From Eledone cirrhosa (Eukaryota): 64,000 nt of DNA. The translations under genes and the position numbers were made by a program. Location: positions 22,754,001 to 22,818,000 of the forward strand of contig OZ024762.1 in the NCBI GenBank assembly GCA_964016885.1. Direction: 5' to 3'. The notes under the pieces were generated by a model, which was not told the origin of the DNA, searched no databases, and saw nothing but the letters and a program-made list of their open reading frames with translations. Every line of letters begins with the position of its first letter. The stretch's first letter is position 1. This document shows positions 42,884-62,594 of this stretch, in pieces.

Positions 42884-45028
42884 TACGATATTAAATAAAT
42901 GGAAACTATATTTATAAAACCATATTTATTTCATTATATATATTTCAGGGATATCATATTAACAATATGCTATGCCTTCCTCAGACAAAATACAATATAA
43001 ACAGTTTTGACATACCGTACAACATCGACTTGTATTTGAAAAGTTGAATTGGCAGTGAAAAAATTGTACACAGAGAGAAAGAAAGAGAGAAAAAAAGAGA
43101 GAAAAAAAGGAAAGAAAGACAGAAAACGAAGAAAAAGAAGAAAAAGAAGAAATGCATGGAACAAAATAGAGAGATGGAAAGATAGATAAAGAGAAGAACT
43201 TCATGTAAAGAAACAGAGATATATATATATAGAGAGAGAGAGGAAATAGAGATGATATATATATAGAAAACTAGGTAGTGGGACATCCGTTGAGTAAACG
43301 TGTCAATGATACATTTATTTATTTATTTATTTATTTATTTATTTAGCTCTAGTATTAATGTAAGGGAGATATATGTGGTTAGGAGAGAAACCAGCTGTTA
43401 TATAGAGAGAAAAATTAAAAGTAACCAGACATAGGCGAGGCATAAAAACCCTATGTTTTAATGTAGAGGTATTAGTATGTATAAAAACCAGCCACTATAT
43501 TGTAAATATCAGTATTCCTGAATGAGACATGTATCCATAATGTGTGAAAAGTAATGATTGTATGTTTAGTTTTTTAAAAAATTCATATGTTTATGTGATA
43601 ACTACAAGCATCTATGTGAATTTACATGATCAACTCTGCAAACCCTAAGTTCACGGAAAACATTCTCATTGTGCTATAAAAATTTAAGTATACATATATG
43701 TGTATATATATACACACTGTTTCGAATAAACGTTACACTAGATAAACTTCTATATTAAATGTGTGAACACATGTAGACCAAATGGGCATCCTAAACTTTT
43801 TGAAATGATTTTTGCTAGATGCGATTTGATAAATAATTTTTAGCTTTATCTGTTTTTCGACTCTGATGCTTATAATGAACTTGGCAATATATTGTCAATT
43901 GATTTTGAAGGGTTGATCTTTGTGGTTTATTTTTATTATTGTAGTATTTTCTAATATTTTTAATATGTAATATTTTTAATATGTAATATTCTTTCGTAAT
44001 ATTTTTTAGCTTTCTATTTTATTATTATTTATTATTATTATTATTATTGTTATTTTTTGGTTTTTGTTTCTGATATATATTTTTTTTATTAATATATTGA
44101 AATCTGCTCTCTATTTCTGCTTGATAGATAATCTTGTAGAATAAAGACAAGAATAGTAGTAATATAGACTCTCTATATATATGTGTGTATATATATACAC
44201 ATATATGTATACTTAAATTTTTATAGCACAATGAGAATGTTTTCCGTGAACTTAGGGTTTGCAGAGTTGATCATGTAAATTCACATAGATGTTTGTAGTT
44301 ATCACATAAACATATGAATTTTTTAAAAAACTAAACATACAATCATTACTTTTCACACATTATGGATACATGTCTCATTCAGGAATACTGATATTTACAA
44401 TATAGTGGCTGGTTTTTATACATACTAATACCTCTACATTAAAACATAGGGTTTTTATGCCTCGCCTATGTCTGGTTACTTTTAATTGTTCTCTCTATAT
44501 AACAGCTGGTTTCTCTCCTAACCACATATATCTCCCTTACATTAATACTAGAGCTAAATAAATAAATAAATAAATAAATTTATCATTGATACGTTTACTC
44601 AACGGATGTCCCACTACCTAGTTTTCTATATATATATATCTATCTCTATTTCCTCTCTCTATATATATATATCTCTCTCTGTTTCTTTACATGAAGTTCT
44701 TCTCTTTATCTATCTTTCCATCTCTCTATTTTGTTCCATGCATTTCTTCTTTTTCTTCTTTTTCTTCGTTTTCTGTCTTTCTTCCTTTTTTTCTCTCTCT
44801 TTTTTTTCTCTCTTTCTTTCTCTCTGTGTACAATTTTTTAACTGCCAATTCAACTTTTAAAATACAAGTCGATGTTGTACGGTATGTCAAATCTATTTAT
44901 GTATAAAACTGTTTATATTGTATTTTGTCTGAGGAAGGCATAGCATATTGTTAATATGATATCCCTGAAATATATATAATGAAATAAATATGGTTTTATA
45001 AATATAGTTTCCATTTATTTAATATCGT
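42884..45028. repeat. Long inverted repeat with ~830-bp arms (42884-43717 and 44183-45028) and a ~465-bp spacer; outer ends carry hammerhead-like elements
   Basis: The arms are near-perfect reverse complements. ORFs 42981-43286(-) and 44606-44860(+) give almost identical peptides. Confidence 0.93.
44921..44985 (+). ncRNA. Hammerhead-like motif, family A copy (others at ~42931-42990 -, 52125-52190 +, 52621-52680 -, 61726-61785 +)
   Basis: CTGA(G/T)GA-A(G/A)G-C-hairpin-C-C(C/T)T-GAAA-TAT(A/G)T(A/T). Stem II covaries among copies. The stem I register is uncertain. Confidence 0.55.
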
Positions 45029-45599
45029 AAATATACTCCAAATACTTGTCGAGTGCTTTTATATCAGTTATAAATATTTACTAGTTGTAACCCAACAATT
45101 TAAATATAACTTTCCATATATATATATATATATATATATATGCACACACATATGTAGATAAATAGATATACTTCTATTTCTATCTCTCACTAAATATATT
45201 ACTATATATATATATATATGCACACACATATGTAGATAAATAGATATACTTCTATTTCTATCTCTCTCACTAAATATATATATATACATATATATATATA
45301 TATATATATATATTTGTATATATATCACCTGAGAGCATAGACCCGGTGTTTTGCATAGCTCCGCCTTTCTAAATGTTTACCTGTAAACATACCGTATTTC
45401 TTTAGAAATACGAAATTCTAATACATATCTGTATACAGCTATGCATGAAGCTAAATTCTAATTATCTGTCATATATATATATATATATATATATATATTG
45501 AAATTTCCGTTGGTAACAGAAAAGGTCATAGAAGTGAAGAGTGCTCTATGTAAGTATCAGAGCAAAATTTAATGTATAAAAATCAATACAATATAATTA

Positions 45600-45669
45600 C
45601 CTCATTACCAGAGGTTTCCCGAATGAAGCGAATACGAAATAAACGTCTTCATTCGTTCGTCAGACGAGG
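45600..45669 (-). ncRNA. Type I hammerhead ribozyme motif in the left arm of a fold-back palindrome (45571-45826)
   Basis: Minus strand: cctcgt CTGACGA a CGAATGAAG...CTTCATTCG g GAAA CC tct GG TA atgagg. Stem I cctcgt/atgagg, 9-bp stem II, stem III ACC/GGT, GUA cleavage triplet. Confidence 0.75.
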
Positions 45670-46808
45670 CAATATACTGTTCGTCAGACGAGGCAATATA
45701 TTCGTTCGTCAGACGAGGCAGATATTGCCTCGTCTAACGAACGAATGAAGACGTTTATTTCGTATTCGCCTCATTCGGGAAACCTCTGGTAATAAGGTAA
45801 TTATATTGTATTGATTTTTATACATTATATATATATATATATATATATATATATATATATATATATATATATATATATATTTATATTACTCACATTAACA
45901 GGCTCAAGTACAAGCATACATAGATCGATAGATGGATACATAGTCAAGTATATATAAATATATATATATACAAGTGGAAGAAAAGTACAATCGAAGCTTT
46001 GACTGCGGCCAAGCAAAAGCAACCTACAATTAGGAATGAGTAGTAGGATTCAATCAGGTAGGGCCTTAGAGTAATAACATAGGTCTAGATAGGTTGAGAA
46101 ATTGAAAATTGCGGCAGGCAAATCCCAGCCATACAATACCAAAACAACGAAAAAACTAATCAGGTTAGACAACAGACCCGGACAAATCGAACAATAATCT
46201 GCAATACGTCCGATATGTTTCTATGAATCCGGAATCATCAATCCAACTTACGTAATACGTAAGCTTGTGGTATTCTATGATCGAACAGGGGATTCACGTC
46301 ATCGACAGGTATTTCGTTCTATGCCTAAGATGGTGTGAACTGCCACTCAGAACGACTGCTACAAAAGACAGCATTCAGTTTTTCGTTGTCACATGTTATT
46401 TCCAACAAGGGAAGTAACCCCCAGTTTTTGGCGGGCAAATTCAAGGTGTGAACAAAGGAAAATAATTCCGTTCAACATTCCGAAAAAAAAGCTCTCGACT
46501 AGACGTTTTTAAACAAACATCAATAATTAACCAATCAACAGAATTAATATATATATATATATACGTATATACAAATATAAATTAGCGAGAATCGTATTTC
46601 GGCTATTGGAAATTAGCGAAAAACAACTTCCGAGATGTGTTGCAAGCGCTCAATGAATTCTAACGAACCAGAGCTACAACATACGTCAAAAGGCCAAACA
46701 CACTGAGACGATGGCTAAACCATTAGCTGCACAGCCATGGAAACGACCAAGTAATTCGGGTAAAAAAAAAAAAAAAAGAGGTCATGTGAATAAAAAATTG
46801 GTTTTATT

Positions 46809-60237: not shown

Positions 60238-60366
60238 ACAACAGTTAATTCACCATTTCCTCAAACAAGTGTTTCCCCTTAGCCGGATCTTCAGCTCGGT
60301 TAAAGCGAGCTGAAGATCCGACTCAGGTGAAACAATTGTTTGCGGAAATGGTGAATTAACTGTTGT
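60238..60366. ncRNA. 129-bp fold-back hairpin made of two head-to-head hammerhead-like motifs
   Basis: Arms 60238-60298 and 60306-60366 with a 7-nt loop. The right arm reads CTGAAGA tccgactcaggt GAAA CAATTG TT. Stem I is incomplete. Confidence 0.5.
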
Positions 60367-60439
60367 ATTACTACTTCTACCAAACTCGTCCCATGGACTG
60401 AGTGCCTAACTACTACGTATATAACCCACCAGTATTCTA

Positions 60440-61620
60440 TTAATATATATATATATATACACACATATATATACACACATATATATATATATATATACAC
60501 ATATATATACACACATATATATATATATATATACACATATATATACACATATATATATATATATACACATATATATACACACATATATATATATATATAT
60601 ACACACGCACACACATATATATACGCACACATATATATATATATATATATACACACACATATATATATATATACACACACACACATATATATACACACAC
60701 ACATATATATACACACATATATATACACACACATATATATATATACACACGCAGATATATATATATACACACATATATATATACATACACACACACACAT
60801 ATATATATATACATATATATATATACACACACACATATACACACACACACATATATATACACACACACACACACACACACACATATATATATATATTAGA
60901 CATATATACACATACAGACACGTATGTGAGTGTTTTTGTTATTTTCACACAGACAGAAATATCTCTATCTTATTTTCCGAGGTAGATAAAATAAAGTACC
61001 AGCAAAATACTGGGGGATGTAAGCGACTTTCCCCTCACTTCCCTTGTTGGCCTTGTGTCTATGTTAAAAAAGCCTTTGTTATCAAGGTCAATTCTGTCAT
61101 GATTGATCAGCAGTACCTGGTCCCTCATCACACATTTATATATACACATAATACAAGTTTTTATACGCATATATATGCACACACACACACACACACACAC
61201 ACACATATATATATATTCATAAACTTATACATACATATATAAATATGTATATATATATACATAAAATATACACATGTATATACCCACACATGTATATACA
61301 CACACACATGTATATCCATATACATATATATACACACACACACACATGTATATACATTTATATAGACACATGTATATACATATATATAAATACACATGTT
61401 TATACATATATATACACACATATACATACACACATATATACATTTATATACACACACATGTATATACATATATATATATACACACATGTATATACATATC
61501 TATACACATGTATATACACACATATATATATACACATGTATATACATATATATACACACACAATTGCAACATATCCATATATATATCTATACACATGCAA
61601 CATATCTATATATGCACAAT
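60440..61620. repeat. (TA)n/(CA)n compound tracts with a SINE 3' fragment at ~60972-61070
   Basis: Read directly. The SINE block is gataaaataaagtaccag...ggccttgtg. Confidence 0.9.
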
Positions 61621-62594
61621 ATTTGACTTTTCTTCTCTTTCCCTTCTTTCCTTTACTATCCAGGAAAAACTTGATCCGTAAAGATCTTCTTCCTGGATAT
61701 GTCAATATTTATAAAACAAACTTTGTATTTTATCTGATGAAAGCGTACCAAAGTTTTGGTACCCTTGAAATATATATAATAGAATATATATGGTTTTATA
61801 AATATAGTTTCCATTTATTTAATATCATTGTATATATATTATCACTTATTTTTTATCATTTATTTTGTTTTGACCGGTTTAGCTTGATTTGGTTTTAGGC
61901 TTGGGTGGTTAATGCTTCCTTGACCACCGTTTCAAATTTGTATGGCTTCTTAACACATTGTTTAGCTCTGGTTTTTAACTTTTGAGCACTTTGCCAGTAT
62001 CTTCAGATTTTTGCGTTTCGCCTCGCTTTTCCTGCCCGGCGAAAATGCAATTCTCGCTGAATCTTTATTTGTATATATATATATATATATATATATATAT
62101 ATATATATATATATATACACACACACACATGCAACATATCTATCTATATACATATATATATGCAAACCAACTGCCCCTATCCAGCACTACACACACCACA
62201 CCCACTTCCCACACACCACCAACCCTCGTTATTTGTAGTGTATTTAGTGAGTTTAGTGTAATCCGAGAAAAAATGTGGCCTCCATTTTATCCAATTCTTT
62301 CGCTTGTACGAAGTTTTATCTCTTTCTGTTTTCTGTATGATCGCGTGTCTTTATACATGCTACAGCTTATCGTTGAATAATGAGGCATTTTTTTTCCCTC
62401 GGATAGAATGTACTCAGTTCGAACTTGTGGTATATAATATGGTGTATATAATATGGTATGTATTCATGCGACAATTCCGTGACGGTTCTACATCTATTAG
62501 ATGTTATTTCGTGTAAAACAATGAAATGTATGCTAAGTGAAGTCCTTAAAACCAGAGTCATGCCTATATGAATAGAAATGTAGTAAACACGTAT

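What the first reader, a model, noticed from the sequence alone, without database searches (positions are those of the whole stretch)
42931..61785. Five-copy element (family A) whose hammerhead-like stem II shows compensatory substitutions
Between CTGA(T/G)GA and GAAA the copies read AGG-C-ATAGCATATT-gtt-AATATGATAT-C-CCT (44929 and its mirror), AAG-C-ACACCA-loop-TGGTGT-C-CTT (52133), AGG-C-ATACCA-loop-TGGTAT-C-CCT (52673, minus) and AAG-C-GTACCAAA-gt-TTTGGTAC-C-CTT (61734). Three positions change in pairs (G-C/A-T, T-A/C-G, A-T/G-C), a C-C mismatch is kept, and the loop varies freely. This is sequence evidence for selection on RNA structure in the source subfamilies. Stem I is off by one nucleotide from the canonical register, so this may be a variant hammerhead architecture.
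Basis: seen in the sequence. Interest (0 to 1): 0.75.

Follow-up and report, generated by a model that had tools for sequence, protein, structure and literature searches.

The report
Hammerhead ribozyme of Hydra-clade Penelope retrotransposon
These five motifs are end pieces of a jumping-gene family with over 40,000 copies in this animal genome, each carrying a predicted self-cutting RNA whose base pairs and catalytic letters were kept in the lineages that went on spreading; this is a known kind of element, here a new family with unusually clear evidence of selection on RNA structure.

Summary
The motif is real. It is a type I hammerhead in the terminal repeat (pLTR) of a young Penelope-like retrotransposon that has the Hydra-clade protein motifs. 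A 25-nt anchor matches 42,437 places. Full copies carry a 737-aa RT/GIY-YIG ORF under purifying selection. The five window copies are four insertions.

Stem I is in canonical register, not off by one: GAA, an 8-nt palindrome, A17, then 8 bp.

Covariation holds genome-wide. Stem II pair 2 reads A-U 19,875, G-C 12,651, G·U 2,121 (an amplified subfamily) and A·C 183 (scattered). On a tree of 183 insertions, lineage changes keep pairing in 21 of 24 cases, private changes in 40 of 128. The core and the C·C show no lineage change; N7 shows five. DNA hairpin conversion and ADAR bias do not explain this.

Cleavage is untested. 5' ends do not pile up at the cut site (1 of 65).

PLE hammerheads with covariation are published. 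This family was not found in my searches or in earlier scan notes; other Penelope-hammerhead families in this genome were noted.

The parts
42886..43716 (-). Inverted, 5'-truncated arm of insertion 1 (end of 3' UTR + pLTR, no tail), ending in (TA)n 49 nt past the predicted cut site
   Evidence: 860-bp inverted repeat, 95%; matches arms of ORF-bearing elements L058/L060/L064; end at 42886
42927..42992 (-). Hammerhead copy 2: C3 at 42984, predicted cut after A17 at 42935
43720..45115 (+). Direct arm of insertion 1: about 1.2 kb of 3' UTR + pLTR + tail; no ORF left
   Evidence: 94% identical over 43720-45142 to full-length element L205; no tblastn hit of two ORF queries to the window
44921..44986 (+). 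Hammerhead copy 1: stem I 44921-44928 with 44979-44986; CUGAGGA 44929-44935; stem II 44936-44966; GAA 44967-44969; palindromic stem III 44970-44977; A17 44978
   Evidence: sequence; parse; fold
45028..45115 (+). 88-nt PLE 'tail' between the two 3' end sites (+49 and +137 from the predicted cut), followed by (TA)n
52067..52231 (+). Solo truncated pLTR (A-U subfamily); hammerhead 52125-52189, C3 52133, A17 52181; private U in stem III (AUAUGUUU)
52577..52755 (-). Solo truncated pLTR (G-C subfamily, 99% identical to other genomic copies); hammerhead 52681-52617, C3 52673, A17 52625
61618..61830 (+). Solo truncated pLTR (short-loop subfamily); hammerhead 61726-61786, C3 61734, A17 61778

Best explanation
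The motif sits in the terminal repeat of a high-copy Penelope-like retrotransposon with Hydra-clade protein motifs, and is a type I hammerhead predicted to cut the element's RNA after AUA, likely as a dimer; its catalytic letters and stem pairs were kept in the lineages that went on amplifying, while single copies decay. Shown: anatomy, copy number, link to an intact RT/GIY-YIG ORF, two fixed 3' ends in (TA)n, lineage-level conservation with G·U steps. Inferred mechanism: a transcript across a partial tandem carries two copies 3,741 nt apart; their 8-nt palindromes pair into a double hammerhead, which cuts out a unit-length RNA or frees it from a host read-through transcript. The element's endonuclease nicks (TA)n, and the RT starts at +49 or +137 on the two DNA ends, giving the inverted two-armed insertions. 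Because cDNA usually runs through the cut site, the template copied is uncut or re-ligated RNA.
For: Core: in 100 anchor-selected copies (first exact matches on C1), 86 parsed, 77 with a fully intact core; each fixed core letter is kept in 83-86 of 86, while N7 is T53/A15/G13/C5. Tree of 183 insertions: 12 core columns have 16 private and 0 lineage changes; N7 8 and 5 (Fisher p = 0.011); C·C 9 and 0. Changes at 20 pairs keep pairing in 21 of 24 lineage events against 40 of 128 private ones (p = 3e-7); without the pairs fixed by my search patterns, 11 of 12 against 27 of 83 (p = 1e-4). Genome-wide at stem II pair 2: A-U 19,875, G-C 12,651, G·U 2,121, A·C 183; the first 100 listed G·U copies are nearly all one subfamily, the A·C copies come from many backgrounds. 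Stem I pair 2: A-U 42, G·U 34, G-C 7, A·C 0 of 86. Named structure on 55 distinct rows: 96.5% paired, 57 both-side cells against 18.6 shuffled, 0 of 500. ORF: nine 745-codon open frames read in eight loci; 32 of 81 scored matches have a stop-free frame of 744-761 aa (my count of the table); pN/pS 0.12-0.23 in 6 of 6 pairs. L200 reads HHR-ORF-3'UTR-HHR, 3,741 nt apart. 3' ends: (TA)n begins at +45 to +59 in 130 of 149 tail-less copies and at +135 to +149 in 100 of 132 tailed copies; 68 of 74 divergent pairs have exactly one tail. Monomer stem III costs about +4.7 kcal/mol; the self-duplex is -1.0 to -3.2.
Against: No cleavage was measured. 5' ends of ORF-complete copies do not pile up at the cut site: 1 of 65 within 10 nt, 42 of 65 run at least 33 nt upstream through it, 22 end downstream. 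In the one PLE reconstituted in vitro, HHR mutants did not affect insertion and no RNA-seq reads ended at the cut site (PMC11167929, parts 1-2 of 4 read). The canonical G10.1-C11.1 pair is absent: A-U 70, U·U 6, G·U 3 of 86, and 7,070 copies have a non-A there. The hammerhead fold lies 3.3-7.4 kcal/mol above the monomer MFE. One lineage lost a distal stem II pair (C-G to C·A, then G·A and A·A), and one outer-stem variant breaks a pair (7 of 65). The G·U over A·C excess on the tree is not significant once pattern-fixed pairs are removed (6:1 against 15:13, p = 0.20). The 33 nt 3' of stem I are about as conserved as the core (though they include my anchor), so part of the constraint may be RT binding. 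The tree is short (160 columns, including tested ones), midpoint-rooted, parsimony-mapped, and part of the sample was chosen by stem II patterns.
Confidence: 0.85

Rival explanations
1. The fold is selected as RNA but not for cutting: it is a binding or positioning element for the RT-endonuclease next to the two priming sites, and the hammerhead look is inherited.
For: No 5' pile-up at the cut site. Weak first pair of stem II. The 3' flank is also very conserved. HHR cleavage was dispensable for insertion in vitro for Poseidon_Ac (PMC11167929, passages read).
Against: The pattern of constraint is that of catalysis: 12 core columns fixed while N7, the one free position of the hammerhead core (own knowledge), changes five times among lineages; cut-site triplet stays AUA in 85 of 86 at position 17. 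The Poseidon_Ac HHR did cut when protein was added (PMC11167929).
Confidence: 0.1
2. Paired changes come from DNA-level hairpin gene conversion or from ADAR editing of the RNA, without selection on an RNA fold.
For: The C·C is closed to C-G in 193 copies, 0.46% of 41,900, about as often as the A·C transition, which is a little high for one transversion and may show rare hairpin-templated repair. Several lineage steps are A to G. An earlier scan note reports ADAR marks in Penelope fold-backs in this genome.
Against: The C-G closers lie in many subfamily backgrounds and form no amplified lineage (first 100 listed); C·C is kept in 83 of 86. DNA conversion should not favour G·T over A·C on one strand, yet the counts are 2,121 against 183. 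Private changes show no A-to-G excess (44 A>G, 64 T>C, p = 0.33). U-to-C completions (three events) and G-C to G·U to A-U paths are not ADAR changes. The unpaired core is conserved too.
Confidence: 0.03
3. Shared ancestry alone: a few master copies, so the covariation is a handful of lucky events.
For: Only about 27 lineage events at paired sites were reconstructed, and double changes occur at few pairs; 'pairs with a change on both sides' is not above shuffles (4 against 3.6).
Against: The test counts events on the tree, not copies, and uses private mutations as the null: 21 of 24 against 40 of 128.
Confidence: 0.02

Closest known systems
Hydra-clade Penelope-like elements (Craig et al. 2021, PMC8557442; sections 11 and passages, Files S1-S2 and protein passages read)
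   Same: C-terminal GIY-YIG, RWK-like motif (RWR), DKT, CxCX5C linker, CxxC and CxH around the conserved E and N, (TA)n target, pLTR hammerhead with 4-bp stem III and frequent U before GAA, inverted truncated arm and one-sided tail.
   Different: A different family from Hydra-1_Obim (different HHR; the 3' anchor and two core-plus-stem motifs are not in any Hydra entry of the supplement). Unit 3.74 kb with a 1.3-kb 3' UTR (Hydra generally under 3 kb); tail 88 nt (30-40 nt described); zero-loop palindrome; long stem II with fixed C·C; over 40,000 pLTR copies. Best database protein 40% identical over the full length.
Minimal (min-HHR) type I hammerheads of metazoan PLEs (Cervera and de la Pena 2014, PMC4209133; parts 1-2 of 4 read)
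   Same: [quoted passage not shown]
   Different: Lacks the highly conserved G10.1-C11.1 pair and the extra nucleotide between 9 and 10.1; helix I is long (8 bp plus a 12-bp outer stem) rather than 4-5 bp.
Poseidon_Ac PLE reconstituted in vitro (Frangieh et al. 2024, PMC11167929; parts 1-2 of 4 read)
   Same: Two RT start sites downstream of the HHR that define the tail; AT-rich target; uncut RNA as main template.
   Different: Different clade; there the ORF starts inside the HHR, here the ATG lies 188 nt after the cut site.
Metazoan non-LTR retrozymes (preprint 10.64898/2026.07.22.740005, part 1 of 5 read; PMC7229834, search listing only)
   Same: Type I HHR in dispersed repeats related to pLTRs.
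   Different: Retrozymes are non-coding tandem units; these are truncated ends of a coding element.

Membership tests
Type I hammerhead ribozyme | Core CUGANGA ... GAA with A15.1-U16.1 and H17 | tested here: met
   77 of 86 parsed unbiased copies fully intact; N7 free; A17 in 85 of 86
Type I hammerhead ribozyme | Three helices in canonical register, helix I open | tested here: met
   96.5% of cells paired, 36% when slid by one
Type I hammerhead ribozyme | G10.1-C11.1 first pair of helix II | tested here: not met
   A-U 70, U·U 6, G·U 3 of 86. Published Hydra-clade HHRs often lack it too (File S2), so this lowers 'canonical', not 'Hydra-type'
Type I hammerhead ribozyme | Site-specific self-cleavage | not testable with these tools
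   No assay; genomic 5' ends show no pile-up at the site
Type I hammerhead ribozyme | Match to an Rfam hammerhead model | tested here: not met
   No hammerhead family at gathering score in the window or among the 150 best of 315 E-value rows shown
PLE min-HHR (dimer type) | Short palindromic helix III, unstable as monomer | tested here: met
   AUAUAUAU 42, AUAUGUAU 38 of 86; hairpin +4.7, duplex -1.0 to -3.2 kcal/mol
EN+ Penelope-like element | Single ORF with RT and C-terminal GIY-YIG between pLTRs | tested here: met
   L200, L201, L202, L203: HHR-ORF(745 codons)-HHR. Domains read from motifs and by eye against the Hydra proteins; Pfam and PDB searches gave no hit
EN+ Penelope-like element | Partial tandems, inverted 5'-truncated arm, tail at one end | tested here: met
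   68 of 74 divergent pairs have one tail; maps
Hydra clade | RWK, DKT, CxCX5C linker, CxxC and CxH motifs in the endonuclease | tested here: met
   RIRWRA, KSDKTNN, CNCRDRSKC, CDLCAEE, CRH in the L198 ORF against section 11; RWR in place of RWK
Hydra clade | Insertion into (TA)n | tested here: met
Hydra clade | Generally shorter than 3 kb | tested here: not met
   3,741-nt unit; a tendency in the paper, not a strict criterion
Hydra clade | Placement inside the Hydra clade on an RT tree | not tested
   Reference proteins were seen only as cut text in a supplement; no tree was built
Non-LTR retrozyme | Non-coding tandem units each with an HHR | tested here: not met
   Copies are ends of a coding element

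The most novel reading that the evidence does not exclude
The ribozyme is needed in vivo as a cut-and-rejoin device: two pLTR hammerheads release a 3.74-kb unit that is ligated into a circle, which the RT copies for more than one round from two fixed start sites. That would explain why the catalytic core is frozen in amplifying lineages although cDNA runs through the cut site. The invariant C·C in stem II would be an undescribed tertiary or protein contact that makes up for the missing G10.1-C11.1 pair.
Probability: 0.25. Interest if true: 0.72.

Novelty: new member of a known kind. Interest (0 to 1): 0.42.

Why it matters
What PLE hammerheads do is open: one paper asks whether they merely parasitise the element (PMC8557442), and in vitro they were dispensable for insertion (PMC11167929). 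This young family separates lineage changes from post-insertion decay and shows that the catalytic letters are held fixed in lineages that keep transposing, which argues against passive carriage. It also offers intact ORFs and natural stem variants for a direct assay, and a countable case of compensatory evolution through amplified G·U intermediates. The kind of element, its hammerhead and covariation between subfamilies are already in print, so the gain is in strength of evidence and testability, not in kind.

Tried and rejected
Rfam scans: only a tRNA-like hit at gathering score; E-value rows shown were repeat noise. Pfam on four ORF pieces and PDB on the whole ORF: no hits. RT run-off at the cut site: in 285 copies about 11 have a 5' break within roughly 10 nt of it by my reading, but the palindrome gives TA microhomology and the extension method breaks at indels, so inconclusive; the cleaner test on ORF-complete copies was negative (1 of 65 rows from 78 loci). 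The idea that the cut 3' end, (AU)4A, pairs with the (TA)n target to prime cDNA was rejected: integrated 3' ends lie at +49 and +137, not at the cut. ADAR as driver: no A-to-G excess among private changes. Off-by-one stem I: rejected. Rows dropped: 29 of 285 copies did not parse (truncations, internal deletions), 5 more failed length filters, and second arms were removed, leaving 183; 14 of the 100 unbiased copies did not parse. Lunse et al. 2017 on dimeric PLE hammerheads is not held; I saw it only through a review passage (PMC6765202), so it may describe similar variants. PMC5785220 was a wrong id (outline, unrelated). PMC11300833 and PMC544870 (passages) gave nothing on AUA sites. PMC13282606 (passages) reports Penelope expansion in an octopus but does not use the words Hydra or ribozyme. 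Supplements of the bioRxiv preprint were not seen. Literature searches behind 'not found'.
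Full report
Observation. Copies 44929 and 42984 are the two arms of one insertion, an 860-bp inverted repeat at 95% identity, so the window holds four insertions. The three paired changes and the C·C are in the alignment.

Parse. Every copy reads stem I, CUGANGA, stem II, GAA, an 8-nt stretch from A15.1 to U16.1, A17, stem I'. In the first 100 exact matches of a 3' anchor on contig C1, chosen without regard to the ribozyme, 86 parse; 77 have a fully intact core; the 8-nt stretch is AUAUAUAU (42) or AUAUGUAU (38); position 17 is A in 85. 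Stem I has 8 bp starting next to C3. On 55 distinct rows 96.5% of cells pair, and sliding by one column gives 36%. So the register is canonical. A further 12-bp outer stem is present in most of 65 insertions, with two G·U variants and one C·A variant.

What carries it. The anchor has 42,437 exact matches in G000, control 0. Between inverted pairs 3.2-3.7 kb apart lie RT and GIY-YIG reading frames. A protein search gave 81 scored matches, 32 with a stop-free frame of 744-761 aa by my count; nine 745-codon frames were read directly. pN/pS is 0.12-0.23 in six pairs. L200 reads HHR, ORF, 1.3-kb 3' UTR, HHR, 3,741 nt apart. Both A-U and G-C type subfamilies lie next to ORF pieces of the same family at 65-99% identity. 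The window's 43720-45142 is 94% identical to the 3' part of full-length L205 and holds no ORF. The ORF shows RWR, DKT, CxCX5C, CxxC and CxH, the marks of the Hydra clade in Craig et al. 2021. It is not Hydra-1_Obim, and the best of 164 database relatives is 40% identical over the full length; named hits are from an argonaut. No RT tree with Hydra references was built.

Ends. (TA)n begins 45-59 nt past the predicted cut in 130 of 149 tail-less copies and 135-149 nt past it in 100 of 132 tailed copies; 68 of 74 divergent pairs have one end of each kind. This fits the two RT start sites that define the PLE tail in Frangieh et al. 2024.

Is the covariation selection on RNA? Three tests. (a) Genome-wide counts at stem II pair 2: A-U 19,875, G-C 12,651, G·U 2,121, A·C 183. 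The listed G·U copies are almost all one subfamily; the A·C copies are scattered. (b) A tree of 183 insertions, separating changes on branches under three or more insertions from private ones. Core: 0 lineage, 16 private. N7: 5 and 8. C·C: 0 and 9. Pair-keeping: 21 of 24 against 40 of 128; without pattern-fixed pairs 11 of 12 against 27 of 83. Most compensations pass through G·U; two at stem II pair 6 appear as double steps. The three breaks are two U·U at pair 10.1-11.1 and one lost distal pair. G·U over A·C is 9:1 against 23:32 overall, but that set includes loci picked for A·C; without those pairs it is 6:1 against 15:13, p = 0.20. (c) Rivals. The C·C is closed in 193 of 41,900 copies with no amplified lineage among those listed. 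Private changes show no A-to-G excess. Limits: short tree that includes tested columns, parsimony, midpoint root, partly pattern-selected sample.

Mechanism. Shown: anatomy, ends, conservation. Inferred: the palindrome cannot close as a monomer hairpin (+4.7 kcal/mol) but can pair with a second copy (-1.0 to -3.2), as for dimeric PLE hammerheads (Cervera and de la Pena 2014; review passage). Two copies in one transcript would cut out a unit-length RNA. Against a simple 'cut, then copy': among 65 ORF-complete copies one ends within 10 nt of the cut, 42 run through it and 22 end before it. The template is therefore uncut or re-ligated. That AUA is a usable triplet and N7 the free core position is my own knowledge, not a call result.

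Novelty. PLE hammerheads, their dimer design and subfamily covariation are published, and Hydra-clade hammerheads lacking G10.1-C11.1 are tabulated. New here: the family, its size, the 3.74-kb unit and 88-nt tail, the fixed C·C, and the lineage-versus-copy evidence. My searches found no description of this family; Lunse et al. 2017 could not be read. Earlier scan notes hold no look-alike stretch but several other Penelope-hammerhead families in this genome.

Verdict. New member of a known kind; interest 0.42.

Noticed in passing
window 49097-49143 (+), C3 at 49105: A second, unrelated minimal type I hammerhead (6-bp stem I, U·U first pair, ACUAGU palindrome), inside the inverted repeat 48182-48903 / 49119-49844; probably another Hydra-type pLTR.
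   Followed up: partly
window 59258-59304 (+), C3 at 59263: A third minimal hammerhead with canonical G10.1-C11.1 and a GUU site.
   Followed up: partly
window 60238-60366: Hairpin of two opposed CTGAAGA...GAAAC motifs (60294-, 60310+), likely the two arms of another small PLE insertion; they failed my stem filter.
   Followed up: partly
window 10027 (-): Another CTGAGGA...GAAA motif; failed my stem filter.
   Followed up: no
window 52785-52858 (+): tRNA-Ser(GGA)-like sequence 30 nt from the 5' end of the 52673 copy, inside a short palindrome; GGA is an unusual anticodon, so probably a SINE head or pseudogene.
   Followed up: no
window 22864-38992: 16-bp satellite, about 1,040 copies, no CpG in 24001-38000, ending at a 200-N gap.
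   Followed up: no
window 4944-5979, 55316-56035 and many dispersed places: Tandem arrays (205 and 121 bp) of an abundant SINE-like repeat.
   Followed up: no
window 52067-52755: Two solo pLTRs of different subfamilies face each other across one (TA)-rich tract: independent insertions into the same microsatellite.
   Followed up: yes
L201 (G000:C4:320953500-320963400): Two intact 745-codon ORFs back to back, each with its pLTR: both arms of one insertion are full length.
   Followed up: no
L136:1688-2218, L151, L133, L012, L179: Endonuclease-like pieces only 30-50% identical to this ORF: other Hydra-type families in the genome.
   Followed up: no
first 100 matches: Large subfamilies carry a one-nucleotide bulge on the 3' side of distal stem II while keeping the C·C and the proximal pairs.
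   Followed up: partly
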